From: a virus
Lineage: Duplodnaviria > Caudoviricetes
Virus record (IMG/VR): IMGVR_UViG_3300025400_000022
Span: 1-56,895 of that record
Length of the DNA stretch: 56,895 nt
Strand: one strand, 5' to 3'
Below the pieces are notes generated by a model that was given only the letters and a program-made list of their open reading frames with translations, did not search any database and was not told the origin of the DNA. Positions within the stretch are counted from its first letter, which is position 1, and each line of letters begins with the position of its first letter. Positions 1-19,634 of this stretch are shown one piece after another. A program made the position numbers and the translations under genes.

Positions 1-231
1 ATCTACGTTCTGATGGACGATGAACAAGTGGATAAAATGGTCGGCTACCAGTACGAACACGTCATCACACTGGACAGCGCCAGCGAGTACGAGATGCTTT
101 GCGCGGTTGAGGAATGGTTTGAGGAGTCTTGCAGTCTGCGCTTCGTTCAGTCTGTCAGGAGCGCACTAGAGGGTGAAGACCCTAACAAGGGTTTCACCGT
201 TCTGATTGAACAGGGTTTCGGGGAAGACTAG
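1..231 (+). CDS. Hypothetical acidic early protein (5' partial)
   Basis: Frame 1 is open from base 1 (IYVLMDDEQ...) to TAG at 229-231, followed by GC-rich hairpins. Confidence 0.7.
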   Translation: MYVLMDDEQVDKMVGYQYEHVITLDSASEYEMLCAVEEWFEESCSLRFVQSVRSALEGEDPNKGFTVLIEQGFGED

Positions 232-327
232 GGGAGTGGGGTGGCTATCACAGCACCCCCTCACTGATACGCCGAGGGGGTGGGGTCACTTGACCCCGCC
301 CCCTTGAGGTATCCCCACTCTCTTTTT
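232..327 (+). terminator. Compound hairpin / intrinsic terminator
   Basis: Long stem gatac..gagggggtggggtca / tgaccccgcccccttg..gtatc (266-313); gagtgggg (234-241) is also complementary to ccccactc (313-320); then tcttttt. Confidence 0.6.
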
Positions 328-389
328 CGCGTGTGTGCACCCGTACGCGAATCGCGTGCAGGAATCGCGTATGCGAATCGCGTGCACGA
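327..389. repeat. TCGCGT/ACGCGA block, copy 1
   Basis: TCGCGT-gtgtgcacccgt-ACGCGA-A-TCGCGT..ATCGCGT..ATCGCGT. Confidence 0.9.
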
Positions 390-427
390 GATGACAATGG
401 CAATTTTACAAATAAAGTTGGGGAAAA

Positions 428-456
428 ATTATACCATAACGTCGGCCACAAGTCAA
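428..456 (-). promoter_or_regulatory. Antisense sigma70/SigA-type promoter
   Basis: Minus strand TTGACT-17 bp-TATAAT with TG extension; points into the CGCG block. Confidence 0.85.
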
Positions 457-467
457 GTCAATTCTAC

Positions 468-482
468 AGATAATGCCTATCT
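468..482. promoter_or_regulatory. Palindromic site AGATA-N5-TATCT, copy 1
   Basis: agata-atgcc-tatct between divergent -35 boxes; recurs at 1058, 1782, 2516. Confidence 0.75.
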
Positions 483-503
483 CAAAAAAAGATTGAAACC
501 GGC

Positions 504-532
504 TTGACTTTCTTCCCTGCACCTGCCATAAT
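504..532 (+). promoter_or_regulatory. Sigma70/SigA-type promoter
   Basis: TTGACT-17 bp-CATAAT with TG extension; followed by hairpin gggg-aaaag-cccc and RBS aaaggag. Confidence 0.85.
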
Positions 533-569
533 GGATACGTCGGGGAAAAGCCCCAACAAAGGAGATGAG

Positions 570-1001
570 ATGACCTACACCTACGAAACGCCTAAGGGCG
601 GAGTGTTCGAGAGCAACTATGCCCTCACAAAAGAACGTAGCGCCGACATTTGGTTCTGCGAAGGCGGTGGCATTGTAAACGCAATTGGAGACTACTACTA
701 TGGCAACGGTCGGGTGACTATCTACTGCTTGGGGGAGATGCGCCTAAACTTGGCAGACGGAACAGTCTGGCGAAGTGCTTGGGACTTGCCTAGCAACATC
801 ACTAACGACGAAGAACTAATGAACGTGTGGAGCGCCCCCGAAAACGACGTGGTGAACAACTGTTGGATAGAACTGTTCGACACCAGCGAGGGACAAGACG
901 TTGAGAACGAAGAGACCTACATCATTTGCGGGGACATTTGGGAAGCAATAGACGAAGCCCACGCCTACCTAGTGGCCACCTATCCAGAAGTTGAAGGGTA
1001 G
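570..1001 (+). CDS. Hypothetical acidic early protein
   Basis: ATG 570 after AAAGGAG; the ORF-track start at 504 is the promoter -35 box. Confidence 0.8.
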   Translation: MTYTYETPKGGVFESNYALTKERSADIWFCEGGGIVNAIGDYYYGNGRVTIYCLGEMRLNLADGTVWRSAWDLPSNITNDEELMNVWSAPENDVVNNCWIELFDTSEGQDVENEETYIICGDIWEAIDEAHAYLVATYPEVEG

Positions 1002-1012
1002 GTGGTGCAGGG

Positions 1013-1034
1013 TTCGCGTATACACACACGCGAA
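1013..1034. repeat. TCGCGT/ACGCGA block, copy 2 (single unit)
   Basis: tTCGCGT-atacacac-ACGCGAa. Confidence 0.85.
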
Positions 1035-1057
1035 GAATCTCGAGGTATCTAGAAAAA

Positions 1058-1112
1058 AGATAGGGGGTATCTACGAAAGTGATTTGACTTTTTTCCCTGC
1101 ACCTGTCATAAT
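1058..1112 (+). promoter_or_regulatory. AGATA-N5-TATCT site plus sigma70-type promoter
   Basis: Palindrome 1058-1072; TTGACT 1084-1089, 17 bp, CATAAT 1107-1112; nearly identical to the promoter at 504. Confidence 0.85.
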
Positions 1113-1152
1113 GGATACATACCGAAAAGCGGTATAACGAAAAGGAGAAACA

Positions 1153-1611
1153 ATGACCACAACCACTTACCCTGCTAAGGGAGTAATCACCTCTAGTTGC
1201 ACCTGCTACTACTGCCCTAGTTGCGAGATGACTTTCACGGACGACACCTATCCCGAAAACTGCGACTGCGGGACACCCTGCACACCTGCCTATGAGTCTT
1301 GCTCCGGCGAGTGCTGGGACTTCGCAACCGAAGACTTTGCCTACAACGCTTTTACTCCGTGGTGCTTGGCGAACGAGACCGACGAGTTCGCTATCTATGG
1401 TCGGCGTATGGGTTGGACTAACGGTAGCGGACACACGGGACGACTGACCGCGTTCAGGGAATTGCTGAACAACCTGACCCTGAACGGGGACTTCATTCTT
1501 CGCTGGGAGTTGAGCGAAGACAACAAGACCCTGACCGTCATTCGCTCTAGCCACGACGAAATGGGTGCGATGTTTGAGGTAGTGCCGTGGAATGAGGGAG
1601 ACGACGAGTAG
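1153..1611 (+). CDS. Hypothetical protein with Cys-rich (possible Zn-binding) N-terminus
   Basis: RBS AAAGGAG; CTCYYCPSC...CDCGTPC...CSGEC. Confidence 0.8.
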   Translation: MTTTTYPAKGVITSSCTCYYCPSCEMTFTDDTYPENCDCGTPCTPAYESCSGECWDFATEDFAYNAFTPWCLANETDEFAIYGRRMGWTNGSGHTGRLTAFRELLNNLTLNGDFILRWELSEDNKTLTVIRSSHDEMGAMFEVVPWNEGDDE

Positions 1612-1615
1612 GAGT

Positions 1616-1638
1616 AGGGTGGGGGGCGACCCCCACCT
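1616..1638 (+). terminator. GC-rich hairpin after ORF
   Basis: ggtggggg-gcga-cccccacc. Confidence 0.55.
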
Positions 1639-1650
1639 GAAACACCCCCT

Positions 1651-1714
1651 TCGCGTATGCCCGCATACACGCGAATCGCGTATCGCGTACACATACACGC
1701 GAACACGCACGCGA
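1651..1714. repeat. TCGCGT/ACGCGA block, copy 3
   Basis: Three TCGCGT and three ACGCGA separated by alternating purine-pyrimidine spacers. Confidence 0.9.
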
Positions 1715-1741
1715 GGAGATTTTACAAATAAAGTTGGGGAG

Positions 1742-1770
1742 ATTTTAGCACACGGGGCCACAAAAGTCAA
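1742..1770 (-). promoter_or_regulatory. Antisense sigma70-type promoter
   Basis: Minus strand TTGACT-17 bp-TAAAAT with TG extension. Confidence 0.8.
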
Positions 1771-1780
1771 GCATCAAAAG

Positions 1781-1846
1781 GAGATAGCCCCTATCTCAAA
1801 AATAGTTGGAAAACGATTTGACTTTTGCCCCGACCTATGGCATACT
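1781..1846 (+). promoter_or_regulatory. GAGATAG-N3-CTATCTC site plus sigma70-type promoter
   Basis: Palindrome 1781-1797; TTGACT 1818-1823, 17 bp, CATACT 1841-1846. Confidence 0.85.
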
Positions 1847-1894
1847 AGTTAGGTCGAGGAAACGCCGAGACAAACTACCGAAAGGATTACAACA

Positions 1895-2335
1895 ATGGAA
1901 CACGTCACTTACGGCACTGAGGTTGCCTCCGAGTTCACGCCCACTACCACCGCCGAGTTGGCGTTGGAAAACCGTGAGCGTGCAGTTGGGGTCAAGGAGC
2001 GTGCCATCACCGCTAAGGAGAATGACCTCTCCGAGCGTGAAGCATACCTCTCAAATGTCAAGGGTCAGATTATTGAGTTGGCTAAGTCCCTGATGGGTGA
2101 TGACGTTATTGTCGTTCAGCGTGAAGACTTTGATACTTTGGTTGATTTGGTGGAGACGGCTATCTCTAACTCCGAGGATAGCAAGGCGGCTATTGAAGAT
2201 TTGCAGTCTGAAATCTATGACCTGAAGCGGAACGCCGACAGCGTTGAGAGTAGCGCCGAAGATGCAAGTAGCAACCTTGAGAGTTCGCTTGCGGACTTGG
2301 AGAACGCCCTAGACAACCTGAAGGGTCTCGCTTAG
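1895..2335 (+). CDS. Acidic coiled-coil protein
   Basis: RBS GAAAGGA; heptad-like E/D/L/A/S-rich sequence. Confidence 0.8.
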   Translation: MEHVTYGTEVASEFTPTTTAELALENRERAVGVKERAITAKENDLSEREAYLSNVKGQIIELAKSLMGDDVIVVQREDFDTLVDLVETAISNSEDSKAAIEDLQSEIYDLKRNADSVESSAEDASSNLESSLADLENALDNLKGLA

Positions 2336-2336
2336 G

Positions 2337-2384
2337 CAACGGGTAGGGGGTTGGGCGCAAGCCCGACCCCCGATAACCCCGTTG
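2337..2384 (+). terminator. Nested hairpin with GCAA tetraloop
   Basis: caacggg..gggggttgggc-gcaa-gcccgaccccc..cccgttg. Confidence 0.6.
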
Positions 2385-2392
2385 GGGGCATT

Positions 2393-2441
2393 TCGCGTAT
2401 GTAGGCACGCGATTCGCGTATCGCGTACGTATGCACGCGAA
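2393..2441. repeat. TCGCGT/ACGCGA block, copy 4
   Basis: TCGCGT-atgtaggc-ACGCGA-T-TCGCGT-A-TCGCGT-acgtatgc-ACGCGA. Confidence 0.9.
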
Positions 2442-2475
2442 GCGACCCGAGGATTTTTAGAAAACGTATGGGGAA

Positions 2476-2504
2476 ATTATACCATAGGCCACACCAAAAG
2501 TCAA
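2476..2504 (-). promoter_or_regulatory. Antisense sigma70-type promoter
   Basis: Minus strand TTGACT-17 bp-TATAAT with TG extension. Confidence 0.85.
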
Positions 2505-2515
2505 GTATCAAAGGC

Positions 2516-2580
2516 AGATAGTCCCTATCTAAAAAAAAGATGCGTTTTGACTTGACAGCGACGCCGAGACCTGTCATAAT
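2516..2580 (+). promoter_or_regulatory. AGATA-N5-TATCT site plus ardC promoter
   Basis: Palindrome 2516-2530; TTGACA 2552-2557, 17 bp, CATAAT 2575-2580. Confidence 0.85.
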
Positions 2581-2625
2581 GGATACGTTCCGAAATGCGG
2601 AGCAACTAATCAAAGGAGCAAGCAA

Positions 2626-3516
2626 ATGAGCAAGACCGCTTACGAGGTAGTCGCCCAGACTATCATCAAGCAACTGGAAAACAACGTCGCACCGTGGCGC
2701 AAGGAATGGATAGCCTACGGATACAAGCCTAAGTCAATGAGCAGTGGCAAGACCTACAAGGGTATGAACTTTATGCTCTTGATGTTTGAGGCTATGGACA
2801 AGGGCTACGAAAGCCCGTGGTGGGGAACGTTCAAGCAGATTACCGAGCGTGGAGGCGTGGTCACGAAGGGCGAGAGGGGCACTCCCGTAGTCCTGTGGAA
2901 GCAGTTTGAGACCGAAAACGCTGACGGGGACAAGAAGAAGGCGGTGGTGATGCGCTACTTCACCGTGTTCAACGCCCAGCAAGCGACGTGGGAAGACGGG
3001 AAAGCGCCAGCCTACGATAAGCCCGTTGCCCGTGATGCCGTTGCAGTCATTGAGGGGGCGCAGAGCATTATGGACAACTACTTCGCCCGTGACAATGCAC
3101 CGAGCCTAGCCTTTGGTGGAAACCGAGCCTACTACTCACCTAGTCGAGACGGTATCCAACTTCCCCAGCAGTCCAACTTCGTGAGCGATAGTTCGTTCTA
3201 TGCAACGGCGTTTCACGAGATGGGTCACTCAACCGGTCACAAGTCACGCCTAAACCGTGACGGCGTCGTGGAAAACCACTACTTCGGTAGCGAACTCTAC
3301 AGCGAAGAGGAATTGGTGGCAGAGTTCACGAGTGCGTTTTTGTGCAGTGAAACCGGTGTTTTGCCCGAGACACTGGACAACAGCACCGCTTACATCAAGT
3401 CTTGGCTGAAGGTTCTGAAGAACGACCCGAAGATGCTAGTAAAGGCAGTGGGTCGGGCGCAGAAGGCTACGAACTTCATCACCGGCGCAGAGACGGAGAC
3501 GGTGGAAGCCGAGTAG
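2626..3516 (+). CDS. ardC: ArdC-family antirestriction protein (ssDNA-binding N-domain plus zincin-like domain)
   Basis: PWRKEW, Y.G.N..LL, WGTFKQ...GG.V.KGE.G, FTVFN.QQ, AYYSPS.D.I.LP, HEMGHSTGH.SRLNR, Y..EELVAE, YI.SW.K.LK.D. Confidence 0.92.
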   Translation: MSKTAYEVVAQTIIKQLENNVAPWRKEWIAYGYKPKSMSSGKTYKGMNFMLLMFEAMDKGYESPWWGTFKQITERGGVVTKGERGTPVVLWKQFETENADGDKKKAVVMRYFTVFNAQQATWEDGKAPAYDKPVARDAVAVIEGAQSIMDNYFARDNAPSLAFGGNRAYYSPSRDGIQLPQQSNFVSDSSFYATAFHEMGHSTGHKSRLNRDGVVENHYFGSELYSEEELVAEFTSAFLCSETGVLPETLDNSTAYIKSWLKVLKNDPKMLVKAVGRAQKATNFITGAETETVEAE

Positions 3517-3567
3517 TGGCAGGGGGTCGGGGCGAACGTGTGTTCGCTCCGGCTCCGCCATTTTTTT
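3517..3567 (+). terminator. Intrinsic terminator
   Basis: Long GC stem around gaac-gtgt-gttc followed by T7. Confidence 0.75.
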
Positions 3568-3622
3568 CGCGTGCGTGTATACGCGAATCGCGTAGGCGCG
3601 GGTACGCGAATCGCGTACGCGA
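3567..3622. repeat. TCGCGT/ACGCGA block, copy 5
   Basis: Three TCGCGT..ACGCGA units joined by single A. Confidence 0.9.
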
Positions 3623-3698
3623 GAGGATTTCTAAAGAAACTACGGGCGAAAGTAGCCAGTTTTTGAGAAAAAGATGGGGAAAAATTATCGCACGACTA

Positions 3699-3727
3699 AT
3701 TATAGCGTATGCGTGAGTGAAAGTCAA
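3699..3727 (-). promoter_or_regulatory. Antisense sigma70-type promoter
   Basis: Minus strand TTGACT-17 bp-TATAAT. Confidence 0.85.
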
Positions 3728-3786
3728 GAATAATTACGTGTCATACTGTAAGCCCCTCAGACGGGTTATTTATGGGAAGGTATCAG

Positions 3787-4077
3787 ATGACACAGAACTT
3801 GTATTTCGTGACGGCAGACGGGCTTATAGGCATCGCTGACGGGCTTTTGCTTGTGCGCAGTGACGAGGTGACTTGGACAGAGTTGCAGGAAGCCGTAGAG
3901 AAGCCTAATCCGAAGTCGCAGGTTATGCGACTGCTACAGCGTGACAAGGGTATTCGCCCAGACGCAGTTGCACTAACTAAGGCCACAGCGTTCACCACAC
4001 CAGAGGCGGCGCAGGAGTTCCGAGAAGACCTTGAAGAAAAAGGTTGGACTTGGCTTGACAAGGACACAAACCCCTGA
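3787..4077 (+). CDS. Hypothetical protein
   Basis: ATG after GGAAGG; upstream extended -10 TGTCATACT at 3739-3747. Confidence 0.7.
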   Translation: MTQNLYFVTADGLIGIADGLLLVRSDEVTWTELQEAVEKPNPKSQVMRLLQRDKGIRPDAVALTKATAFTTPEAAQEFREDLEEKGWTWLDKDTNP

Positions 4078-4083
4078 TACAAT
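4055..4083 (+). promoter_or_regulatory. Sigma70-type promoter
   Basis: TTGACA-17 bp-TACAAT; followed by AAAAG-loop hairpin 4088-4110. Confidence 0.85.
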
Positions 4084-4128
4084 GGTTGAGTACCGGAAAA
4101 GCCGGTGCTTTTATCAGAAGGGATTACC

Positions 4129-4515
4129 GTGGGAGACCGTGGAAACATCAAGTTAGTTAGTGAATACGGACAGCCGATTTACTTTTACACTCATTGGACT
4201 GCTTACCGACTGCCCGAAATTGTGGCGCAGGGGCTGGACAAGGGGCGTGACCGGTGGGGCGATGAGGACTACCTCAATCGTATCATCTTTCAGACGCTCC
4301 TCGGAGGCGACGAGAGCAACCTTTCTTACGGCATCAGTACCCGTGAGGCTGGCGACGCTTGGCGCTTGGTAGAAGTAGACCACGTAAAGGAAGAAGTTTC
4401 TATCTATGAGCGTGTCTACAGCGAAGACTTTGCGGACAGTCACTGGCGACCCGTCTATGAGCCTAAGTCGTTTCACGAGTTTGTCCTTGACTTTCTCCCC
4501 GTGGTAGCGGTATGA
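4129..4515 (+). CDS. Hypothetical phage protein (MGDRGNI..FYTHW)
   Basis: GTG after GAAGGGA, in frame with ORF-track 4105..4515. Confidence 0.8.
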   Translation: MGDRGNIKLVSEYGQPIYFYTHWTAYRLPEIVAQGLDKGRDRWGDEDYLNRIIFQTLLGGDESNLSYGISTREAGDAWRLVEVDHVKEEVSIYERVYSEDFADSHWRPVYEPKSFHEFVLDFLPVVAV

Positions 4516-4784
4516 TGAAGTTCGAGGATTGGTGGAACCAGTATCAGCCCCTAGATAATCATTTCCAATCTAGGGCATACTACTTTGTCAAGATGTTCGA
4601 GACCTACGGCGAGGAACTGGAGTTTGTTCAGGGTCAGCCCGTCGAGATGGTGTGGACGGAACTGGACGACGGAACCATTGTGAACGGCTACCACATTGTG
4701 AACAGAATGGGCTACTACATCACAGTCAAGCCGTGGAGCGAGGAAACTGTGGTCGAGGACGAAGAGTTGGAAGAATTGGACTAG
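4512..4784 (+). CDS. Hypothetical acidic protein
   Basis: ATGA overlap with upstream stop; acidic C-terminal tail. Confidence 0.8.
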   Translation: MMKFEDWWNQYQPLDNHFQSRAYYFVKMFETYGEELEFVQGQPVEMVWTELDDGTIVNGYHIVNRMGYYITVKPWSEETVVEDEELEELD

Positions 4785-4816
4785 GAGGTTGCCCCCGAAG
4801 TTTGGGGGCAATCTCC
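4784..4816 (+). terminator. GC-rich hairpin
   Basis: ggaggttgcccccgaa-g-tttgggggcaatctcc. Confidence 0.65.
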
Positions 4817-4821
4817 CCCTA

Positions 4822-4884
4822 TCGCGTGTGCGCATACGCGAAATCGCGTATCGCGTGGGCATGTACGCGAATCGCGTACGCGAA
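4822..4884. repeat. TCGCGT/ACGCGA block, copy 6
   Basis: Four TCGCGT and three ACGCGA. Confidence 0.9.
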
Positions 4885-4915
4885 GAGTTTTTCAAAAAAA
4901 AATGGGGAAAATGAT

Positions 4916-4944
4916 TTGACATTGACGTCGGCGTGTGTCATACT
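4916..4944 (+). promoter_or_regulatory. Sigma70-type promoter
   Basis: TTGACA-17 bp-CATACT with TG extension; AAACG-loop hairpin 4951-4969. Confidence 0.85.
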
Positions 4945-4990
4945 GTTTGGGTCGAGAAAACGTCTCGGCAATTTACCGAAAGGATTACCA

Positions 4991-5197
4991 ATGGCGACAG
5001 CCACTAAGAAAGTTGTAAGCACCGAGGTTCAGGATACTGAAGATGACAGCCCTACGTCGTACAGCGTGACGGTAATGGTTGAGTACCGGTTTGACGTAGA
5101 TGCCGACGGCGAAGCGGAAGCGGAAGCCGAGGGCTGGCGCTACGAAGACTACAAGGGTTTTGCATCAGTATACAGCATTGACGTGGAGGAGAACTAA
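4991..5197 (+). CDS. Small very acidic protein (MATATKK...)
   Basis: ATG after GAAAGGA; likely true start inside ORF-track 4652..5197. Confidence 0.8.
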   Translation: MATATKKVVSTEVQDTEDDSPTSYSVTVMVEYRFDVDADGEAEAEAEGWRYEDYKGFASVYSIDVEEN

Positions 5198-5343
5198 TGA
5201 CCAACTACACCACTATTGAGCAGTTAGTAGAGGCGGTGCAGAAAGCACTCCCGAATTGCGACATTGACCTTGACAACGAGGGTCAGGTCATCATTTACAC
5301 CAACTATTCATTCATTGACGGCGTTCTAAAGGAGAGCGAATAA
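5197..5343 (+). CDS. Small hypothetical protein (48 aa)
   Basis: TAATG coupling at both ends; RBS GGAGGAG. Confidence 0.7.
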   Translation: MTNYTTIEQLVEAVQKALPNCDIDLDNEGQVIIYTNYSFIDGVLKESE

Positions 5344-5513
5344 TGGCAAAAATGTATGTAGGCTTTGACGGCAACTATGGTAGCGCCGAGGATTACGACC
5401 TCTTTATCTTCGACACCGAGGATTTTAGCGAGGCGCAACTGCACCTTTTTGATGAAGACCCCGCCGAGTTTTACCTACGGGCGACGAGCGACGACTGGGA
5501 GGGCTTAGAGTGA
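5343..5513 (+). CDS. Small acidic hypothetical protein (56 aa)
   Basis: TAATG coupling; RBS AAAGGAG. Confidence 0.7.
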   Translation: MAKMYVGFDGNYGSAEDYDLFIFDTEDFSEAQLHLFDEDPAEFYLRATSDDWEGLE

Positions 5514-5674
5514 GGAGCGCAACCGAGGCGTCGAGCGCCCTTATCCTATACGCCGAGCGCAAGTTTCACGGCGAGGAGACGGAAGCCAACGAACTGCTGT
5601 ATTCTTTGCTAGTAGAGATGCTACAGTGGAACGTAGCAGTCACGGACAAAGTTTTCGATTTCTTTGACCACTGA
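5510..5674 (+). CDS. Small hypothetical protein (54 aa)
   Basis: GTGA overlap; RBS GGGAGG. Confidence 0.6.
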   Translation: MRSATEASSALILYAERKFHGEETEANELLYSLLVEMLQWNVAVTDKVFDFFDH

Positions 5675-5675
5675 C

Positions 5676-5704
5676 TTGACAAAGTAAAAAACCCCTGTTA
5701 TAAT
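5676..5704 (+). promoter_or_regulatory. Consensus sigma70-type promoter
   Basis: TTGACA-17 bp-TATAAT with TG extension; AAAAG-loop hairpin 5711-5729. Confidence 0.9.
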
Positions 5705-5746
5705 AGATGAGTACCGGAAAAGCCGGTGCAGAGACAAAGGAGCATA

Positions 5747-6226
5747 ATGCACGTATTACATTTTATCGCAGTAGAGGCTGACAACGCCGAAGACGCAATC
5801 TCTCAAGTAGACATTGCTTTGACGCACGATGACAACCCCGTTTTTCCGTGGAGCGACTGGGCAGAAATCGGGGGGCGCTGGGAGGACGAGGGCGAGGTTC
5901 ACTGCTACGCAGACGACCCCACAAAGTTTGAGGACTTTTTGGAGCGTGCCCGTCTCAACCGAGTGAATGAAATCAAGTTTCTGTTGAGCAACATTGACAC
6001 CGAGGCAATCATTGAAGAAGTGCGCAACTTTGATGGCCGTGATGCCGGACGCAGTCTTGATTTTTACCATCTCCGTCAGGCTATTGCCATTGCCGAGGGC
6101 AACGGAAAGCACGATGCCTACTTCTACGACCTGAAAGAATGGTGCGAAGACTTCAAGTATCTCCGTGAGCGCATGGAAACAGACCCCACTCGTCAATTCT
6201 TAGTCTTGGTAGATTTTCACCACTAG
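5747..6226 (+). CDS. Hypothetical phage protein (W..IGGRW ... VDFH)
   Basis: ATG after AAAGGAG. Confidence 0.8.
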   Translation: MHVLHFIAVEADNAEDAISQVDIALTHDDNPVFPWSDWAEIGGRWEDEGEVHCYADDPTKFEDFLERARLNRVNEIKFLLSNIDTEAIIEEVRNFDGRDAGRSLDFYHLRQAIAIAEGNGKHDAYFYDLKEWCEDFKYLRERMETDPTRQFLVLVDFHH

Positions 6227-6229
6227 GAC

Positions 6230-6258
6230 TTGACAAAGCAAAAAACCCGTGGTACAAT
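6230..6258 (+). promoter_or_regulatory. Sigma70-type promoter
   Basis: TTGACA-17 bp-TACAAT with TG extension; AAAAG-loop hairpin 6262-6284. Confidence 0.88.
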
Positions 6259-6303
6259 GGTTCATCACCGAAAAGCGGTGGTGACAGACAGAAAGGATAC
6301 AAA

Positions 6304-6522
6304 ATGGGAGAGCACCACGTTTACTTCGTAAGCATTACTTGCGACCACATGGTTCTAAACACTGTTGTCTACTACGACAGAACGCCCGACGACGACCGGC
6401 TGGAAGCGGACATTGAAGACGTTCTGCTGGAACTTGCATCACGAAAGATTTTTCAAGAATACGGTTTCAACCCCTACAACTGGGCTATTGACACCGACTA
6501 CACCTACGGAGGAGAACAATAA
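6304..6522 (+). CDS. Hypothetical protein
   Basis: RBS AGAAAGGA. Confidence 0.75.
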   Translation: MGEHHVYFVSITCDHMVLNTVVYYDRTPDDDRLEADIEDVLLELASRKIFQEYGFNPYNWAIDTDYTYGGEQ

Positions 6523-6689
6523 TGACTGTAAACTATGACACCGACGGGACGCCATACATGGAGGTCTCTTACACCTACACCGTAAGCGTTATCGCTGAAA
6601 ACGCTGATGAGGCGCTGATGTACGCTGACGGGCTTTTCAACGACCAGACGGGCGCAAACCCCAATGACTTTCACGTGGAGGTGCTGTAA
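6522..6689 (+). CDS. Small acidic hypothetical protein (55 aa)
   Basis: TAATG coupling at both ends; RBS GGAGGAG. Confidence 0.7.
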   Translation: MTVNYDTDGTPYMEVSYTYTVSVIAENADEALMYADGLFNDQTGANPNDFHVEVL

Positions 6690-6913
6690 TGAGTACCTAC
6701 ACGCACTATTTTGTGGTGGGCTACCACAAAGACCGTGGGTTCTTTTGCGACACCGACGTCTTGGAAGCACATTTTCCTGACGGCTGTATCTGGGATGAAG
6801 ACCTACAAGAGTATCTTCGTATCCCTGACCAGGGATTTAGGGAATACGACGCCGACCTTTATTCGGCGCTACTGCATTACATCCGCAAACTAAACGAAGA
6901 AGGAGGCTACTAA
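6689..6913 (+). CDS. Hypothetical protein
   Basis: TAATG coupling; RBS GGAGG. Confidence 0.75.
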   Translation: MSTYTHYFVVGYHKDRGFFCDTDVLEAHFPDGCIWDEDLQEYLRIPDQGFREYDADLYSALLHYIRKLNEEGGY

Positions 6914-7110
6914 TGAGTAAGTGGATTATCAAGGACTGGGCGGGCAACCGACTGTGGACAGAGTTCGGGAGCGACGACCCGAACCTATCGTTCAACAGTT
7001 TTGAGGAAGCGTGGGACTTTATCTACGTCGCAAAGCCCGAACCAGAAGAAGACAGCCCAGACTGGGTTGATGGCTGGTACGACGACTACTTCGTGGAGGA
7101 GTCAGAATGA
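6913..7110 (+). CDS. Small acidic, Trp-rich hypothetical protein
   Basis: TAATG coupling; RBS AGGAGG. Confidence 0.75.
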   Translation: MSKWIIKDWAGNRLWTEFGSDDPNLSFNSFEEAWDFIYVAKPEPEEDSPDWVDGWYDDYFVEESE

Positions 7111-7166
7111 TGAGCGACGGCTCAGAGTTTGTAGGTGTTTGTGACCTGTGTGACGAATACTTCTAA

Positions 7167-7278
7167 GTAGTGCCCTAGTCTCGGCTAGGTAGTCTATCCA
7201 AAACCCCCTGTAGTGCCCCTGTATTGCCCTGTAGTGCCCGTATTATCCAAACCGGATAGACTGCCTAGCCAGTGCCCC
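7167..7278 (+). repeat. 17-bp inverted repeat enclosing tandem (GT)AGTGCCC repeats
   Basis: ggctaggtagtctatcc 7183-7199 / ggatagactgcctagcc 7254-7270; AGTGCCC at 7169, 7212, 7233, 7271 and ATTGCCC at 7223. Confidence 0.8.
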
Positions 7279-7299
7279 AAAATGTCTCAAATCAAAGCC

Positions 7300-7357
7300 T
7301 CGCGTGTGTATACGTATCGCGTACGCGAATCGCGTATATATATCGCGTATACGCGAA
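7300..7357. repeat. TCGCGT/ACGCGA block, copy 7
   Basis: Four TCGCGT and two ACGCGA with (TA)n and (GT)n spacers. Confidence 0.9.
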
Positions 7358-7387
7358 GGGCCGGTTCTTTGGAAAAATGTCTGGGGT

Positions 7388-7470
7388 CTGGCAGTTTTTC
7401 AAAAAAATGTGGGGAAAAATTATTCTGTGTGGCCCCTGGCAGTTTTTGACCCAAATGTGGGGAAAAATTA
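7388..7470. repeat. Tandem duplicated TTTTT..TGTGGGGAAAAATTA box
   Basis: ctggcagttttt-caaaa-aaatgtggggaaaaatta and ctggcagttttt-gaccc-aaatgtggggaaaaatta. Confidence 0.8.
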
Positions 7471-7533
7471 CGCTTTTGGGGCCGGCCTTATTACTTGTGG
7501 TTTCGGCCACATTTGGTACGTTATCATACTAAT

Positions 7534-7575
7534 AGTATACCATAAATTGACATTCATGTCAAATATTGGTACGAT
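7534..7575. promoter_or_regulatory. Overlapping divergent promoters around TTGACA-TTCA-TGTCAA
   Basis: Minus: TTGACA (7562-7557), 17 bp, TATACT (7539-7534). Plus: TTGACA (7547-7552), 17 bp, TACGAT (7570-7575). Both have a TG extension. Confidence 0.75.
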
Positions 7576-7676
7576 AACTGGGGGTTATGCGGGTATGGGT
7601 ACCCTATACGCGCGGGAATGTGCGTTTAGACGGGCGTATTGACATGGTTTTTTATGGTTTTTTATGGTTCCCATCG

Positions 7677-7955
7677 CTACTCATTCCACTTGCCTTTATT
7701 ATCAAGGTCCCGCTCCGTCAGGCTATTTCCCCATGCGTTCAGAAACGTATCAATCTGAGCCTCTAGGCGTTCAATATCCTTCGTTCCATCAACTTCAGTG
7801 TTCAACTGCTCACCTGTCTCTGGGTTTATTCCACTCTTAGTCATTGTCTCGTTGTATAAGTCTACTAAGTAGTTCTGTAGGTCTTCTATTGAGTTGCCTG
7901 AATAAGCCCCGGTTGCTTCCTCTTCTTGGTTGCCCCCCTCAAAAAAATTACTCAT
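7677..7955 (-). CDS. Hypothetical protein
   Basis: Last ORF of a tightly packed minus-strand operon. Confidence 0.7.
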   Translation of the reverse strand: MSNFFEGGNQEEEATGAYSGNSIEDLQNYLVDLYNETMTKSGINPETGEQLNTEVDGTKDIERLEAQIDTFLNAWGNSLTERDLDNKGKWNE

Positions 7956-8187
7956 CAGGATAACCCCACAAAAGGTTCACGATGGCTTCTTCTTCTTCGG
8001 TCATCTCAGGGTAATTGGGGGCAATAATAGCCACGGCTTGCTCAATGCGTTCTTCTAGGCTGGCATCTGATGGCTTTGGCTTGCCTTCGAGATACTCAAC
8101 ACGTCGTACCGTCTCTACTAATACTTCAGAGAGGCTTAGAAGGCGTTGTGCTAGGTCTAGGTCAAACTCGCTGGGCTGGTCACTCAC
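7948..8187 (-). CDS. Hypothetical protein
   Basis: Packed ORF with RBS GAAGGA. Confidence 0.7.
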   Translation of the reverse strand: MSDQPSEFDLDLAQRLLSLSEVLVETVRRVEYLEGKPKPSDASLEERIEQAVAIIAPNYPEMTEEEEAIVNLLWGYPDE

Positions 8188-9100: not shown

Positions 9101-9334
9101 TTAGTTGTCGCCACGCTTCTTGAACGGCGTTAGGCCGCTCGTAAAGGCGTAGAGAAGGGCGTAGATGAACGTGGCCTGCCAGAAGCCCATAGGTCGGAAC
9201 TGGGGCGCCCAGCGATGAATGTCGCCCGCCAAAAGCATCGTCACCAGTCCGCCCACCAATGCGGCGAGAGGCCACATCAGAAAACTGAAGATAGCAAACG
9301 TCAGGTTGCTAGTAGTCTTGAACTTTACCTGCAT
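9101..9334 (-). CDS. Small membrane protein
   Basis: Two hydrophobic segments, GFWQA motif, TAATG coupling. Confidence 0.7.
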   Translation of the reverse strand: MQVKFKTTSNLTFAIFSFLMWPLAALVGGLVTMLLAGDIHRWAPQFRPMGFWQATFIYALLYAFTSGLTPFKKRGDN

Positions 9335-9603
9335 TAGTTATCCTTGTCGAGCACCGCTACGATGCCGGCAACTGGGACCTGAACGTACTTGACGCCGGCA
9401 ATCTCAACTGCGTATGCCAAACCGTGCTTGAAGACAACACTGTCGCCCTCACTGATGCCCTCAACGTCGGGGCCAACTGAGATAACCTCAGCAATGTCGG
9501 GCAGTGGTACTGCGCCCTGTGGAATTACGAGACCCGTCTCTGTGGTCTTTTCTTTGTGCTCCATGCGAAGAATCACATTGTCGCTAGTGGCCTTGAAAGC
9601 CAT
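9334..9603 (-). CDS. groES: GroES/Cpn10 co-chaperonin
   Basis: DNVIL..E.E.TT.TGLVIP..A..EVISVGP.V.G...GD.V.F....E..G.KY..V....IVAVL. Confidence 0.9.
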   Translation of the reverse strand: MAFKATSDNVILRMEHKEKTTETGLVIPQGAVPLPDIAEVISVGPDVEGISEGDSVVFKHGLAYAVEIAGVKYVQVPVAGIVAVLDKDN

Positions 9604-14410: not shown

Positions 14411-14872
14411 TCATGCCTTCAATTTCTTTTCTGCCTCTTCGGCCTTTTTCTTGCGTCGGTATTCGGCAATGTATTCACGATGTGCGGCCTTACATGGGTC
14501 ACACATTGGCTCAAGCCGCTTGTTGTGAAGGATGTAGCCCTTCTCAGTGCCGTGAGCAATGGGAACGTCCGAAACAAGGTCTCCTCGCTTTTGAGCACGG
14601 CGCTCTTTCTGCAACTGCTTATTGATTGTACGGTCAAAAAACGGCTGAGAAATGCCAAGCGCACGACGCTTTGCGTATCGCTCTCGTTCTGTTGTGCCCG
14701 CCCAAAATCCGTAATGCTCGTACTGCATTGCTTGCTTTAAACACTGCTCCTTTACGGGGCAAACATCACAAAGTTCGTAGCATTCTTCTGACGGCTCTTC
14801 TGCAAAGAAATCAAGCCCGCTGTTTCGACAAGCGGCATCGTCTGCCCATTCATAGTTGCGAATTGGTTCCAT
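14411..14872 (-). CDS. whiB: WhiB-family regulator with C-terminal HGT..GY..H..C..C module
   Basis: W...AAC..DFF..CDVCPVKEQC...A...GFWAGTTERER. Confidence 0.88.
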   Translation of the reverse strand: MEPIRNYEWADDAACRNSGLDFFAEEPSEECYELCDVCPVKEQCLKQAMQYEHYGFWAGTTERERYAKRRALGISQPFFDRTINKQLQKERRAQKRGDLVSDVPIAHGTEKGYILHNKRLEPMCDPCKAAHREYIAEYRRKKKAEEAEKKLKA

Positions 14873-15075
14873 TAGATAGAAAACCAATCTTCTGGCAGTT
14901 CCCAGTCTTCGACGTTTCCAAGTCGCACCATGTGGGCGCAGGGGTCTAGGCCCTCGTCCCAAGCACGCTCTTCGGATTCATGCAAAGGGTAGGCATCGTG
15001 GGTCATGCAAAACTGCTCACTGCAAAACCCCTTCTCCATACCAATCTTGTACCATTGTTCAAACGTTATTTCCAT
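14872..15075 (-). CDS. Hypothetical protein (C..HD..P...DPC.H motif)
   Basis: RBS AGAAAGGA; TAATG coupling. Confidence 0.75.
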   Translation of the reverse strand: MEITFEQWYKIGMEKGFCSEQFCMTHDAYPLHESEERAWDEGLDPCAHMVRLGNVEDWELPEDWFSI

Positions 15076-15089
15076 TTTGTTCCTTTCTG

Positions 15090-15590
15090 TTAAAAACACT
15101 CTTTGTCTGCTGACCACTCGGGCAAAAATCCCCCGTTGGCTTTATACACTGCTACTGCTACTGCGTCTTGCTCAGGACCACTCGCATTCTGAGCAAGTGC
15201 CGCATACTTTAAGCCACCGTAGTGAGCCCAAATGTAGTCGGCAAATTGGTAAAGCCCTCCATCACCAGAGTAAACATTTACGCTTGTCGGGTGATTGGTT
15301 GATTCGTGAAACCGGATGCACGCAAAGGCTGCTTGGGCTGAGAGCGGAATCGAGGCAATGGGGCTTGACGCTGAAGGCCAGTAGGCCGTTGAGTCCGTTG
15401 CCCTTGTGTCCCATTCGTTTCCTGCACTAAGTTTTGCTGCTGGTTTTGAGGCTGGCTCTGGGAACTTGATTTCAAGAATAGCCTCTGTTGTTTTAATGTT
15501 TGCTTTGTCATTTGCATCAATTGTACCATGGTTAGCACTATGATTGCAAATCAATGTGGCAATAAAAATTGCCGCTATTACGTTTTTCAT
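15090..15590 (-). CDS. Secreted Rpf-like / lysozyme-fold transglycosylase
   Basis: Signal-peptide-like N-terminus; CIRFHES..N...GGLYQF...W..YGG..A..AS..EQ..VA. Confidence 0.8.
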   Translation of the reverse strand: MKNVIAAIFIATLICNHSANHGTIDANDKANIKTTEAILEIKFPEPASKPAAKLSAGNEWDTRATDSTAYWPSASSPIASIPLSAQAAFACIRFHESTNHPTSVNVYSGDGGLYQFADYIWAHYGGLKYAALAQNASGPEQDAVAVAVYKANGGFLPEWSADKECF

Positions 15591-18397: not shown

Positions 18398-19417
18398 ATG
18401 GCAAAAAAGACAGATACTGCCTCTATTTTAGACGCAGTTATGGCACAAATTGACAAAGACTTTGGTGAAGGGTCTATTGTACGACTGAGTAACGACAAGG
18501 TTTCACCCGTAGAAGTTATTTCTACTGGCGTGCTTCCGTTGGACATGGCGCTGGGCGCTGGCGGTCTTCCGCTGGGCCGAATCGTTGAGTTCTACGGGCC
18601 GCCCTCATCAGGCAAATCAACGCTGGCGATGCACTCAATTGCAGAAGCGCAGAAGCAGGGCAAAGTGTGTGCGTACATTGACGCTGAGCACGCTATTGAC
18701 CCTGTGTATGCCAAGGCTCTTGGTGTGAACTTAGACGAATTGCTTTTGTCTCAGCCCAGCACTGCCGAGGAAGGCTTGGAGATTACTATTCGCCTTGCAG
18801 AGACCGGAATGGTTTCCGTAATTGTGGTGGACTCCGTTGCCGCTTTGACCCCCCGCGCCGAACTTGAGGGCGAAATGGGCGATGCCAACGTCGGCCTTCA
18901 GGCTCGCCTTATGGGTAAGGCGTTGCGCAAGTTGGCCGGTCCCGCGTTTGACAACAACACACTGGTTATCTTTATCAATCAGTTGCGAGAGTCAATTGGC
19001 AAGATGTACGGGCCGTCTGAATACACCCCAGGCGGCAAGGCGTTGCCTTACTACGCATCAGTTCGCTTGGACATTCGACGAATCAAGACCATCACTAAGG
19101 GCGACGAAGCAACGGCTAACCGCACAAAGGTCAAGGTTGTCAAGAACAAGATTGCCGCACCGTATCGTGTTGCAGAGTTTGACCTTGAGTACGGCGTTGG
19201 CGTCCCAAAGGCTAACGCGTTGATTGACTGCGCCACCGATGTAGGCGTGTTGCAGTCTCGTGGCGCTTGGATTTACTACGATGGCGAGCAGTTTGCAAAC
19301 GGGCGTGCAAAGGCTAAGGCAAAGATTGAGTCCGACCCAGCGTTGTACGAAGAGTTGTACCAGCGTGTATTAGCACTAATCAACGTCACTAAGGCACTGG
19401 ACGAAAACGATGAGTGA
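18398..19417 (+). CDS. recA: RecA recombinase
   Basis: ISTG..LD.ALG.GGLP.GRIVE.YGP.SSGKST, IDAEHA.DP.YA, VVDSVAALTPRAE.EG.MGD, FINQLRE, TPGGKAL..YASVRLDIRR. Confidence 0.98.
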   Translation: MAKKTDTASILDAVMAQIDKDFGEGSIVRLSNDKVSPVEVISTGVLPLDMALGAGGLPLGRIVEFYGPPSSGKSTLAMHSIAEAQKQGKVCAYIDAEHAIDPVYAKALGVNLDELLLSQPSTAEEGLEITIRLAETGMVSVIVVDSVAALTPRAELEGEMGDANVGLQARLMGKALRKLAGPAFDNNTLVIFINQLRESIGKMYGPSEYTPGGKALPYYASVRLDIRRIKTITKGDEATANRTKVKVVKNKIAAPYRVAEFDLEYGVGVPKANALIDCATDVGVLQSRGAWIYYDGEQFANGRAKAKAKIESDPALYEELYQRVLALINVTKALDENDE

Positions 19418-19634
19418 GAAGAACGCACAAAAAAACAATCAAGTTCGAGTTGCGGAAGCAATCAAGATGTGGTATATTGGACATACGTACGGACCGAGTT
19501 ACCGAGACATTTCCCGCATTACGGGCATTTCTCTTGGCACCGTGTTCAACGTGTGCAAGGAATTAAAAGAAACAAATGTAATTGAATTAAACGAAAAGGT
19601 GGCAAGGTCCATCAAACTGAAAGGAACAGAGTGA
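19410..19634 (+). CDS. Stand-alone LexA-like N-terminal DNA-binding domain
   Basis: I......YGPSYRDI....GIS..TV....KEL.E...IE.....ARSI matches the LexA wHTH pattern; 74 aa, no peptidase domain. Confidence 0.72.
   Translation: MSEKNAQKNNQVRVAEAIKMWYIGHTYGPSYRDISRITGISLGTVFNVCKELKETNVIELNEKVARSIKLKGTE

What the first reader, a model, noticed from the sequence alone, without database searches (positions are those of the whole stretch)
327..7357. TCGCGT-(RY)n-ACGCGA arrays with Z-DNA/cruciform-like grammar
Seen: spacers between TCGCGT and ACGCGA vary in sequence (atacacac, gcgtgtat, gtgcgcat, acgtatgc, acacatac, atgtaggc, gggcatgt, aggcgcgggt, gtgtgcacccgt, atgcccgcatac, at, or none). All are even in length and mostly alternate purine-pyrimidine, so the alternation register is kept across each unit. 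Units are usually joined by one base (ACGCGA-A-TCGCGT). I saw such blocks only in 1-7.4 kb. Established: alternating CG/TG tracts form Z-DNA under the negative supercoiling generated behind RNA polymerase, and these lie 30-120 bp upstream of strong promoters. Inference: selection for a non-B DNA structure, or multimeric binding/decoy sites for a CGCG-recognising protein such as a restriction-modification enzyme.
Basis: partly seen in the sequence, partly recalled or inferred. Interest (0 to 1): 0.85.

Follow-up and report, generated by a model that had tools for sequence, protein, structure and literature searches.

The report
Capped alternating-base tracts between phage early genes
Between the early genes of an uncultured freshwater phage lie short DNA tracts that alternate pyrimidine and purine and are always capped by one exact six-letter word found nowhere else in the genome; relatives keep the same design, so it is a real control element whose reader is still unknown.

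Summary
All 37 TCGCGT/ACGCGA hexamers of this 56.9-kb phage contig lie in seven intergenic blocks within 327-7356. None lies in the other 49.5 kb, where 24-28 are expected by low-order Markov models and 4.9 at order 4.

Relatives keep the design. Two IMG/VR contigs, 24 metagenome contigs and a sister clade that uses TCGCGC all confine the words to their small-gene (presumed early) region. Spacers between head-to-head caps are mostly even (95 of 113 distinct long ones). They keep purine/pyrimidine alternation (1171 of 1291 positions) while base identity is free.

Host is probably an actinobacterium (WhiB genes, RecA hits). In relatives the element sits at a fixed distance from the promoter, and in the sister clade it replaces the -35.

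My best reading: a duplex-DNA control element of terminator-promoter cassettes. A sequence-specific protein reads the caps, and the tract between them is selected for deformability or a B-Z switch.

A SIBZ-style model puts Z-DNA in the arrays at sigma -0.04 to -0.045 or beyond. Pure Z-DNA does not explain the exact caps or their avoidance elsewhere. Cruciform and restriction-decoy readings are not supported. The reader protein is not identified; a conserved 74-aa winged-helix protein is only a candidate.

The parts
327..383 (.). Array 1: hexamer order F R F F F (F = TCGCGT, R = ACGCGA). First unit has a 12-nt alternating spacer, followed by three direct copies spaced 13 bp start to start.
1014..1033 (.). 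Array 2: a single F-N8-R unit forming a perfect 18-bp alternating tract.
1651..1714 (.). Array 3: F R F F R R, with spacers of 12 and 8 nt.
2393..2440 (.). Array 4: F R F F R, two N8 units. Hexamer starts fall on a 7-bp lattice (offsets 0, 14, 21, 28, 42).
   Evidence: lattice read from the coordinates
3567..3622 (.). Array 5: F R F R F R with spacers of 8, 10 and 0 nt. It starts directly after the T-run of a canonical terminator.
4822..4883 (.). Array 6: F R F F R F R with spacers of 8, 8 and 0 nt. It ends 32 bp before the -35 at 4916.
7300..7356 (.). Array 7: F F R F F R with spacers of 0 and 2 nt. It lies at the border between the plus-strand small genes and a 0.5-kb non-coding stretch.
276..303 (+). 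G+C-rich hairpin ending the upstream gene, just before array 1. Similar hairpins lie at about 976-1005, 1618-1637, 2346-2371, 3523-3556 and 4789-4811, each just before an array.
   Evidence: read; 3523-3556 was called terminator-like; 2345-2371 gave a weak hairpin-only Rfam hit (E 0.3)
504..532 (+). Sigma-70-like promoter of the gene after array 1. Others lie at 1084-1112, 1818-1846, 2552-2580 and 4916-4944. Promoters at 4055-4083, 5676-5704 and 6230-6258 have no array.
   Evidence: 21 promoter-like sites against 6.0 in shuffles
428..456 (-). Minus-strand promoter-like site (TTGACT, 17 nt, TATAAT) pointing into array 1. Others lie at 1742-1770, 2476-2504, 3699-3727 and 7534-7562.
   Evidence: activity not tested
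2626..3516 (+). ArdC-type anti-restriction gene. It is the only protein of this region shared by all relatives compared, and it served as the anchor for finding them.
19410..19634 (+). A 74-aa winged-helix protein (P0001), a candidate reader of the caps. It is conserved in the array-bearing relatives searched. The assignment is speculative.

Best explanation
The blocks are cis-acting duplex-DNA control elements. They belong to the terminator-promoter cassettes that flank each small gene of the presumed early region, in a clade of uncultured freshwater phages of Actinomycetota.

Each element is an alternating pyrimidine-purine tract bounded by an exact cap, T-CGCG-T on the left and A-CGCG-A on the right. 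In a sister clade the cap is TCGCGC.

I infer that a sequence-specific DNA-binding factor reads the caps. The factor could come from the phage or the host and is not identified. I also infer that the tract between caps is kept alternating because it must be deformed when the element works. The deformation would be strong untwisting or bending, or a B-to-Z flip, driven by the negative supercoiling behind the neighbouring promoter.

The element always lies between the hairpin of one gene and the promoter of the next, and in relatives it touches or replaces the -35. Its likely job is therefore coordinated control of early transcription: shut-off, or a roadblock/insulator between tandem units. The repeated cassettes also serve as breakpoints for gain and loss of gene cassettes between strains.

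Shown: the grammar, its conservation, its confinement and its promoter geometry. Inferred: protein reading, the structural role of the tract, and the direction of the regulatory effect.
For: Confinement and avoidance.
- 37 of 37 hexamers lie in seven intergenic blocks.
- Elsewhere the count is 0 on both strands against 25-28 expected at Markov orders 0-2. Summed over the window and two relatives it is 0 against 40.7 to 5.9 at orders 0-4.
- The same confinement holds in G001 (52 of 52 copies within 8.2 kb of a 31.9-kb record) and G002 (16 of 16 within 4.1 kb of 25.7 kb).
- In the sister clade there are 39-40 copies of ATCGCGC per record against 1-4 for the reversed control.
- In three complete genomes there are 20, 24 and 31 palindromes against 0 for the control, each set within about 12-13 kb.

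Exact caps. Of 298 ends of 149 distinct perfect alternating tracts, 141 are TCGCGT and 8 are TCGCGC. Most other ends are internal ccc/ggg breaks.

Constraint on base class, not base identity.
- In the window's seven 10-nt spacers (measured between the TCGCG and CGCGA cores) the pairwise transition distance is 0.51 (saturated) and the transversion distance 0.07. 170 of 180 inner positions are in phase, with T40/C42 and G57/A31.
- In 24 metagenome contigs 1171 of 1291 positions are in phase.
- Head-to-head spacers of 6 nt or more are even in 95 cases and odd in 18 (p = 4e-14). Tail-to-tail gaps are 25 even and 25 odd, which serves as an internal control.

Promoter geometry in relatives.
- L014: 7 of 14 strong promoters have the 12-bp palindrome exactly 10 nt before the -35.
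- L016: 10 of 15 palindromes end 12 nt before TAnnnT.
- L017: 12 of 16 end 14-15 nt before it.
- L151: 12 of 18 end 16-17 nt before it.
- L017 has no -35/-10 promoters above chance, so there the palindrome stands where the -35 would be.

Trans-factor outside the region. Apart from ArdC, few proteins of the region recur between relatives and none recurs in all four compared. This points to a reader encoded elsewhere in the phage or by the host.

Cassette behaviour. Strain variants have breakpoints at promoters and arrays: 526 to 1107 with 12 shared nt, a 564-nt insertion at 2379/2385, and 1713 to 1014.
Against: - No reader is identified.
- Half-site spacing is highly variable: 0, 2, 8, 10 and 12 nt in the window, up to 22 nt in relatives. 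No rigid dimer could span that range.
- In the window itself the arrays are not at a fixed distance from promoters (32 to 432 bp). Three strong promoters have no array.
- The recognition helix of the candidate winged-helix protein does not co-vary with the cap. The window and G003 share it although their caps differ.
- Alternation is not universal. 3 of 10 units in L015 are odd, 18 of 113 long spacers in metagenome relatives are odd, and only 10 of 31 centres alternate in G414.
- Nothing here shows that the region is transcribed early, or that the elements affect transcription at all.
Confidence: 0.45

Rival explanations
1. Pure non-B DNA. The tracts flip to Z-DNA under transcription-driven negative supercoiling and need no dedicated protein. 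They then act as supercoil buffers or as blocks to read-through RNA polymerase between tandem units.
For: - Alternation is selected while base identity is free.
- Parity follows the dinucleotide repeat of Z-DNA.
- The SIBZ-style model uses the energy table read in PMC3024258 section 8. It gives P(Z in the arrays) of 0.025 at sigma -0.03, 0.72 at -0.04, 0.98 at -0.045 and over 0.999 at -0.05.
- 8 of the 10 best lone-run sites in the window are array units.
- Relatives carry perfect alternating tracts of about 30 bp.
- T/A outer flanks could lower the junction cost (recalled from the B-Z junction crystal structure, not checked here).
Against: - The exact cap word, including its sixth base (141 TCGCGT against 8 TCGCGC), and its avoidance elsewhere are not needed for Z-DNA.
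- TA steps, which are costly for Z-DNA, are common in spacers.
- The advantage over other 8-kb windows is only about two-fold (41.6 against 20-27 Z base pairs at sigma -0.05). Ordinary 8-10 bp CG runs have similar onsets.
- The fixed distance to promoter hexamers in relatives is operator-like.
- In the window, minus-strand promoter-like sites point into the arrays. If they are active, the arrays sit between converging polymerases, where supercoiling is positive (inference).
- Helical constants and the stiffness term in my model are recalled, not read.
Confidence: 0.2
2. Plain operator arrays. Only the hexamers matter, as monomer binding sites. The alternating spacers are decayed or low-affinity copies of the same word plus dinucleotide slippage.
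For: - Direct repeats of the hexamer at 13-bp and 7-bp steps occur without an inverted partner.
- Array 4 lies on a 7-bp lattice.
- The hexamer itself is nearly alternating, so its degenerate copies would look alternating too.
- In G414 the palindrome centre is free.
Against: - Transitions are saturated (0.51) while transversions stay at 0.07. Neutral decay would not produce this.
- Tail-to-tail gaps show neither parity bias nor phase (25 even, 25 odd; 548 of 970 positions in phase), although they lie in the same arrays.
- Spacer lengths up to 22 nt keep their phase.
Confidence: 0.15
3. Recombination hot spots. The GT/AC-rich alternating tracts and repeated cassettes exist mainly to promote shuffling of early gene cassettes by the phage RecA/ERF system, as proposed for PeSLs of T4-type phages.
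For: - Strain variants have joints at arrays and promoters.
- The phage encodes RecA, a YqaJ exonuclease, ERF and SSB.
- Gene content of the region differs almost completely between relatives.
- The PeSL precedent (abstract of PMC2839356).
Against: - The clearest joint (526 to 1107) uses 12 nt shared by the promoters, not the arrays.
- Joints come from assembled contigs of mixed populations.
- Selection for evolvability does not explain exact caps, parity or promoter geometry.
Confidence: 0.08
4. RNA-level element. Read-through or antisense transcripts fold into UCGCGU...ACGCGA hairpins that terminate, process or stabilise early RNAs.
For: - The arrays follow hairpins that mostly lack U-tracts (only 1 canonical terminator).
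- In the window, five minus-strand promoter-like sites would transcribe the arrays.
Against: - Both orientations of the word are absent outside the arrays, although late genes are almost all on one strand. That indicates recognition on duplex DNA.
- Stems never co-vary.
- Hairpins are weak.
- Relatives L014 and L017 lack the minus-strand promoters.
Confidence: 0.05
5. Decoy or sink for a host restriction-modification or other CGCG-directed nuclease.
For: - The word is avoided elsewhere.
- An anti-restriction gene (ArdC) lies among the arrays.
Against: - A phage under restriction pressure would lose the sites, not keep 37 to about 100 of them.
- ACGCGT and TCGCGA are tolerated.
- The promoter geometry in relatives has no place in this model.
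Confidence: 0.03

Closest known systems
PeSL cassettes (promoter-early stem-loop) of T4-type phages
   Same: Small repeated cassettes made of a strong sigma-70-like promoter and a terminator stem-loop flank non-essential early genes in hyperplastic regions and mediate modular shuffling (abstract of PMC2839356; listing of PMC4122927). Here there are hairpin plus promoter cassettes and cassette gain and loss between strains.
   Different: As described in that abstract, PeSLs have no third component. Here a capped alternating tract lies between the hairpin and the promoter. Its word is excluded from the rest of the genome, and the host phylum is different.
Multi-copy phage operators: L5 stoperators and phiC31 conserved inverted repeats
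   Same: A short exact word is repeated tens of times in intergenic regions of an actinophage genome and is tied to transcription control.
   Different: Those sites have a fixed length and a known repressor, and L5 stoperators are spread along the genome. Here the half-site spacing runs from 0 to 22 nt, the spacer is constrained only in purine/pyrimidine class, and the sites are confined to one region.
Stress-induced Z-DNA-forming tracts (SIBZ model, PMC3024258)
   Same: Alternating CG/CA/TA tracts of 18-32 bp lie upstream of promoters, and a transition is predicted at sigma -0.04 to -0.045.
   Different: The exact sequence caps, their avoidance elsewhere, and the frequent TA steps and ccc/ggg breaks are not features of a pure Z-forming tract. 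No natural phage example is known to me. Searches found none.
REP/BIME elements of enterobacteria
   Same: Clusters of short palindromic units in alternating orientation lie in intergenic regions just after genes. They are linked to termination, RNA stability and gyrase binding.
   Different: The sequence is unrelated, REP units are longer imperfect palindromes that act partly in RNA, and they are chromosomal rather than phage elements.
E. coli LexA SOS box
   Same: Inverted half-sites are separated by 8 bp, and the consensus spacer alternates pyrimidine and purine. The candidate reader P0001 has a winged-helix fold that matches LexA DNA-binding domains (TM 0.73-0.76, E about 7e-3).
   Different: The half-site word is different and spacing is variable here. 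P0001 has no LexA hit by sequence and no dimerisation or cleavage domain.

Membership tests
Z-DNA-forming sequence | Alternating purine-pyrimidine tract rich in CG and CA/TG steps, about 12 bp or longer | tested here: met
   Tracts in the window are 12-18 bp perfect and 20-24 bp with one break. Phase is kept at 170 of 180 inner positions and at 1171 of 1291 in relatives.
Z-DNA-forming sequence | B-Z transition predicted at physiological superhelical density | tested here: inconclusive
   P(Z in the arrays) is 0.025 at sigma -0.03, 0.72 at -0.04 and 0.98 at -0.045. The effective sigma in the unknown host is not known, and some model constants are recalled.
Z-DNA-forming sequence | Left-handed form demonstrated by topoisomer gels, antibodies or chemical probing | not testable with these tools
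   This needs bench work.
Cruciform-forming inverted repeat | Long perfect inverted repeat with a short loop and a stable extruded hairpin | tested here: not met
   Stems are 4-6 bp and loops up to 14 nt. Single units fold at -2.3 to -6.0 kcal/mol, with z-scores of -1.3 to -3.3.
Transcription-factor operator array | Exact word repeated in regulatory intergenic DNA and under-represented elsewhere | tested here: met
Transcription-factor operator array | Fixed position relative to promoter hexamers | tested here: inconclusive
   Met in relatives L014, L016, L017 and L151. Not met in the window, where gaps run from 32 to 432 bp.
Transcription-factor operator array | Constant half-site spacing that suits a dimer | tested here: not met
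   Spacers are 0, 2, 8, 10 and 12 nt in the window, 2, 4 and 6 nt in L016, and 0-22 nt in metagenome relatives.
Transcription-factor operator array | Identified cognate DNA-binding protein | not tested
   There is only a candidate, P0001, which is a winged helix. Binding cannot be tested here.
PeSL-type mobile regulatory cassette | Composite of a strong early promoter and a terminator stem-loop repeated between small genes | tested here: met
   21 promoter-like sites against 6.0 in shuffles. A hairpin lies before each array.
PeSL-type mobile regulatory cassette | Insertions, deletions and replacements between close relatives with breakpoints in the cassettes | tested here: met
   Joints in contigs of four metagenome runs. 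The evidence comes from assembled contigs.
Restriction-modification target or decoy | The word is the recognition site of an enzyme of the host or phage | not testable with these tools
   The host is unknown. No DNA methyltransferase or nuclease hit turned up among the window proteins I scanned.
Z-alpha domain protein (as reader) | Winged helix carrying the Z-alpha contact residues | tested here: inconclusive
   The fold matches Z-alpha of ADAR1 (TM 0.79, E 1.6e-2). LexA, IclR and Rio2 winged helices match at similar scores, and no match reaches E 1e-3. Pfam did not report Z-alpha. The contact residues, as I recall them, are not seen in alignment A1.

The most novel reading that the evidence does not exclude
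The capped tracts are natural B-Z switches. Negative supercoiling from the adjacent early promoter flips the tract between its two CGCG caps. A small phage winged-helix protein then reads the caps or the junctions to lock the state. This would give a supercoil-gated insulator or shut-off for early transcription, and it would be the first natural Z-DNA-based regulatory system described in a phage.
Probability: 0.12. Interest if true: 0.9.

Novelty: new variant of a known kind. Interest (0 to 1): 0.62.

Why it matters
Repeated terminator-promoter cassettes and multi-copy operators are known in phages. A third cassette component with this design has not been described as far as my searches reach. 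That design is an exact cap word, a spacer free in sequence and length but held to purine/pyrimidine alternation, and the word banned from the rest of the genome.

Exact-word searches found no relevant paper; the only hit was one unrelated paper holding one of the four strings. Topic searches also found no relevant paper.

The element is abundant, with 37 to about 100 copies per contig. It is conserved across two cap variants in uncultured freshwater actinophages found in many lake metagenomes.

It offers a natural test of whether DNA shape, or Z-DNA itself, is used as a regulatory code in bacteria and phages. It also offers a handle on how the early programme of phages of uncultured Actinomycetota is controlled.

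Tried and rejected
Searches that led nowhere.
- Cultured relatives: blastn of 1-8000 and tblastn of the capsid protein against GenBank phages found nothing. ArdC hits reach at most 43% identity.
- DNA pattern scans of viral contigs gave only chance single hits.
- Rfam on 1-8000 gave one weak hairpin hit at E 0.3.
- Pfam and PHROGs on the small proteins of the region found nothing except ArdC and one family of unknown function.
- No sigma factor was found in 5 records, including 3 complete genomes.

Host-regulon test. The 12-bp palindrome was counted in 401 sampled Actinomycetota genomes. 197 have at least one copy, the maximum is 11, and the reversed control gives 0-4. No genome shows a regulon-size excess (five RecA-hit genomes). 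The host is unknown, so this is weak. The aggregate includes genomes flagged unpublished (G012, G185, G402, G237, G059, G029, G159, G093, G279, G354, G099); nothing specific is taken from them.

Candidate reader. The LexA idea for P0001 has no PDB sequence hit better than E 0.05, and LexA is not among the hits. The fold search gave generic winged helices only.

- No RNA holder is listed among the 24 runs that hold window 1-8000, so transcription of either strand could not be examined.
- Supplements of papers were not opened.
- Complex prediction was not used, because no protein pair is claimed to bind.

Papers and what I saw of each.
- PMC3024258: abstract and sections 6 and 8.
- PMC2839356: abstract and outline.
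- PMC4122927: search listing only.
- All other literature named is recalled.

Rows dropped. One search uses 24 of the 35 metagenome loci, those with 20 or more hexamers. One search gives all 35: 105 even and 25 odd, 1217 of 1364 positions in phase.

Full report
WHAT THE WINDOW IS

The window is a whole IMG/VR virus record, linear and about 65% complete. No cultured phage is related at the DNA or capsid level.

Gene layout:
- Bases 1-7110 carry about 17 small plus-strand genes. Only an ArdC-type anti-restriction protein (2626-3516) has a family.
- Beyond 7.7 kb lie DnaB, RecA, a YqaJ exonuclease, ERF, SSB and a Cpn10-like gene. There are also two WhiB-like genes and an Rpf-like transglycosylase.
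- After these come the structural genes.

WhiB occurs in all relatives searched. The best RecA matches are Actinomycetota MAGs, mostly Acidimicrobiia, at 54-58% identity. The host is therefore probably an actinobacterium; the finer host is unknown. Twenty-four freshwater metagenome runs hold the first 8 kb. That the small-gene region is 'early' is my inference from its layout.

THE OBSERVATION

All 22 TCGCGT and 15 ACGCGA lie in seven blocks between 327 and 7356. Outside them the word is absent on both strands, against 25.0, 27.7, 23.8, 9.0 and 4.9 expected at Markov orders 0-4. TCGCG followed by any base is also depleted more than the other CGCG words.

All 14 head-to-head units have even spacers. 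Each block starts a few bases after the G+C-rich hairpin that ends the upstream gene. Five of the seven blocks end 32-120 bp before a sigma-70-like promoter. Alternation holds within a unit but not across the one-base joints.

RELATIVES

Using ArdC as anchor, two contigs with 72% identical ArdC carry the same word. G001 has 52 copies, all within 8.2 kb of 31.9 kb. G002 has 16 copies, all within 4.1 kb of 25.7 kb.

Five contigs with 61-62% identical ArdC use a variant, aTCGCG-(2, 4 or 6 nt)-CGCGAt. They have 39-40 copies of ATCGCGC, all in about 10 kb in the records whose matches were fully listed (G003, G005, G006; 9 of G004's matches were cut from the list). The reversed control gives 1-4.

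A pattern scan added three complete genomes of this sister clade. They have 20, 24 and 31 palindromes against 0 for the control, each set within 12-13 kb.

A composite pattern scan of metagenome contigs returned 35 loci, of which 24 have 20-106 hexamers.

Apart from ArdC, few proteins of the region recur between relatives, and none recurs in all four compared. The element therefore outlives the genes it flanks.

THE GRAMMAR

In the window, L014 and L015, 18 of 21 long spacers are even. In those 18, 170 of 180 inner positions keep alternation. Both pyrimidines (T40, C42) and both purines (G57, A31) are used.

The window's seven 10-nt spacers (measured between the TCGCG and CGCGA cores) differ pairwise by transitions at 0.51 of sites, which is saturated, but by transversions at only 0.07. 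The constraint is on base class, not on base identity.

In the 24 metagenome loci:
- Head-to-head spacers of 6 nt or more are even in 95 cases and odd in 18 (p = 4e-14). In the even ones, 1171 of 1291 positions are in phase.
- Tail-to-tail gaps are 25 even and 25 odd, with phase at 548 of 970. This is an internal control.
- Direct-repeat spacers are mostly odd (42 against 19) and in phase at 615 of 731. That is expected if alternation runs from a cap inward up to the next cap.

Of 298 ends of 149 distinct perfect tracts, 141 are TCGCGT and 8 are TCGCGC. Most other ends are internal ccc/ggg breaks.

Exceptions: 3 of 10 units in L015 are odd, and only 10 of 31 palindrome centres alternate in G414.

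RELATION TO PROMOTERS

- L014 has 14 strong plus-strand promoters. Seven of them have the 12-bp palindrome exactly 10 nt before the -35.
- L017 has no -35/-10 promoters above chance. Its palindromes stand where a -35 would be, 14-15 nt before TAnnnT in 12 of 16 cases. The distance is 12 nt in 10 of 15 cases in L016, and 16-17 nt in 12 of 18 in L151.
- No sigma factor was found in 5 records.
- In the window the geometry is loose. Five strong minus-strand promoter-like sites point into the arrays, and relatives lack these.

STRUCTURE TESTS

I used the dinucleotide energies of Zhabinskaya and Benham (PMC3024258, section 8) together with recalled helical constants.
- Lone-run onsets of array units are sigma -0.042 to -0.048. 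Eight of the ten best sites in the window are array units, but ordinary 8-10 bp CG runs reach -0.044 to -0.048 as well.
- With the first 8 kb treated as one domain, P(Z in the arrays) is 0.025, 0.72, 0.98 and over 0.999 at sigma -0.03, -0.04, -0.045 and -0.05.
- At sigma -0.05 the first 8 kb holds 41.6 Z base pairs at equilibrium, against 20-27 in other 8-kb windows.
- Hairpins of single units are weak, at -2.3 to -6 kcal/mol. I therefore reject cruciforms.

POPULATION VARIANTS

Contigs of four runs show strain variants:
- a 580-bp deletion between two promoters that share 12 nt (526 to 1107);
- a 564-nt insertion just before array 4;
- joints such as 1713 to 1014 and 3593 to 4851.

The cassettes thus behave like the PeSLs of T4-type phages (abstract of PMC2839356).

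CANDIDATE READER

A 74-aa protein (19410-19634) hits HTH_24 at E 9e-5. It is conserved at 45-49% identity in the five relatives first searched, and it is also present in three complete genomes and one more fragment. It folds confidently as a winged helix, with pLDDT 87.7.

Its best structural neighbours are generic winged helices, including LexA DNA-binding domains and Z-alpha of ADAR1. No match reaches E 1e-3, and no sequence match to solved structures is better than E 0.05. Co-occurrence among related phages is not independent evidence, and its recognition helix does not track the cap variant. It is only a lead.

VERDICT

The exact caps, their avoidance on both strands and the promoter geometry argue for recognition of duplex DNA by a sequence-specific factor. 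The class-only constraint on spacers of free length argues for a structural role of the tract.

I combine the two into a protein-capped structural element of early terminator-promoter cassettes (confidence 0.45). Rivals are pure Z-DNA (0.20), plain operators (0.15), recombination hot spots (0.08), an RNA element (0.05) and a restriction decoy (0.03).

Noticed in passing
window 428-456, 1742-1770, 2476-2504, 3699-3727, 7534-7562 (minus strand): Five near-consensus sigma-70-like promoter sites (TTGACT or TTGACA, 17 nt, then TATAAT, TAAAAT or TATACT) point leftward. They run through a conserved A/T-rich leader, then the arrays, then the upstream gene's hairpin. They could give antisense RNAs of roughly 100-200 nt, or convergent transcription. 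Relatives L014 and L017 lack them.
   Followed up: partly
window about 541-560, 1119-1136, 1853-1870, 4089-4108, 4951-4968, 5709-5728, 6262-6281: Each plus-strand promoter is followed, about 10 nt after the -10, by a short stem-loop with a purine-rich loop (GAAAAG or similar). The same kind of stem-loop follows promoters in L016 and L017. It may be a conserved 5' leader structure of the early mRNAs.
   Followed up: no
L014 375-418 and 3525-3560: There are two clusters of perfect E. coli-type DnaA boxes, each with two direct copies and one inverted. Each cluster forms the hairpin just before an array.
   Followed up: no
window 7110-7680: This is a non-coding stretch at the junction of the plus-strand small genes and the minus-strand genes. 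It holds repeated 'cagtttttNNNaaa...tggggaaaaatta' boxes, an inverted repeat around 7176-7270, and two face-to-face promoter-like sites sharing a palindromic -35 (7547-7575 plus, 7534-7562 minus). The A/T box also lies beside arrays in the window and in L014. In L017 it appears in the opposite orientation relative to the genes.
   Followed up: partly
window 473-490, 1780-1797, 2516-2532, 1046-1075: A second palindrome (AGATAG, 3-4 nt, CTATCT) followed by an A-run lies 20-25 nt upstream of the -35 of several early promoters. It may be another operator.
   Followed up: no
window 526-1107 and 2379-2385: Strains in other lake metagenome runs lack the gene at 570-1001, through a deletion between two promoters that share 12 nt. 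Others carry 564 extra nt just before array 4. This is cassette gain and loss within the population.
   Followed up: partly
window 14411-14962, 22793-23236, 15090-15590, 9334-9603: There are two WhiB-like genes (one with a long C-terminal extension, one with an N-terminal extension), an Rpf-like transglycosylase and a Cpn10/GroES-like gene. These are actinophage hallmarks.
   Followed up: partly
window 26216-29476, 33244-35481, 40094-41335: Two large collagen-repeat proteins, probably fibres, and a glycosyltransferase-methyltransferase fusion lie among the structural genes.
   Followed up: no
L309 107-226: In this window-like relative, some very long arrays carry GGG interruptions at spacings that fit a G-quadruplex motif (four G3 runs with loops of 5-7 nt).
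   Followed up: no
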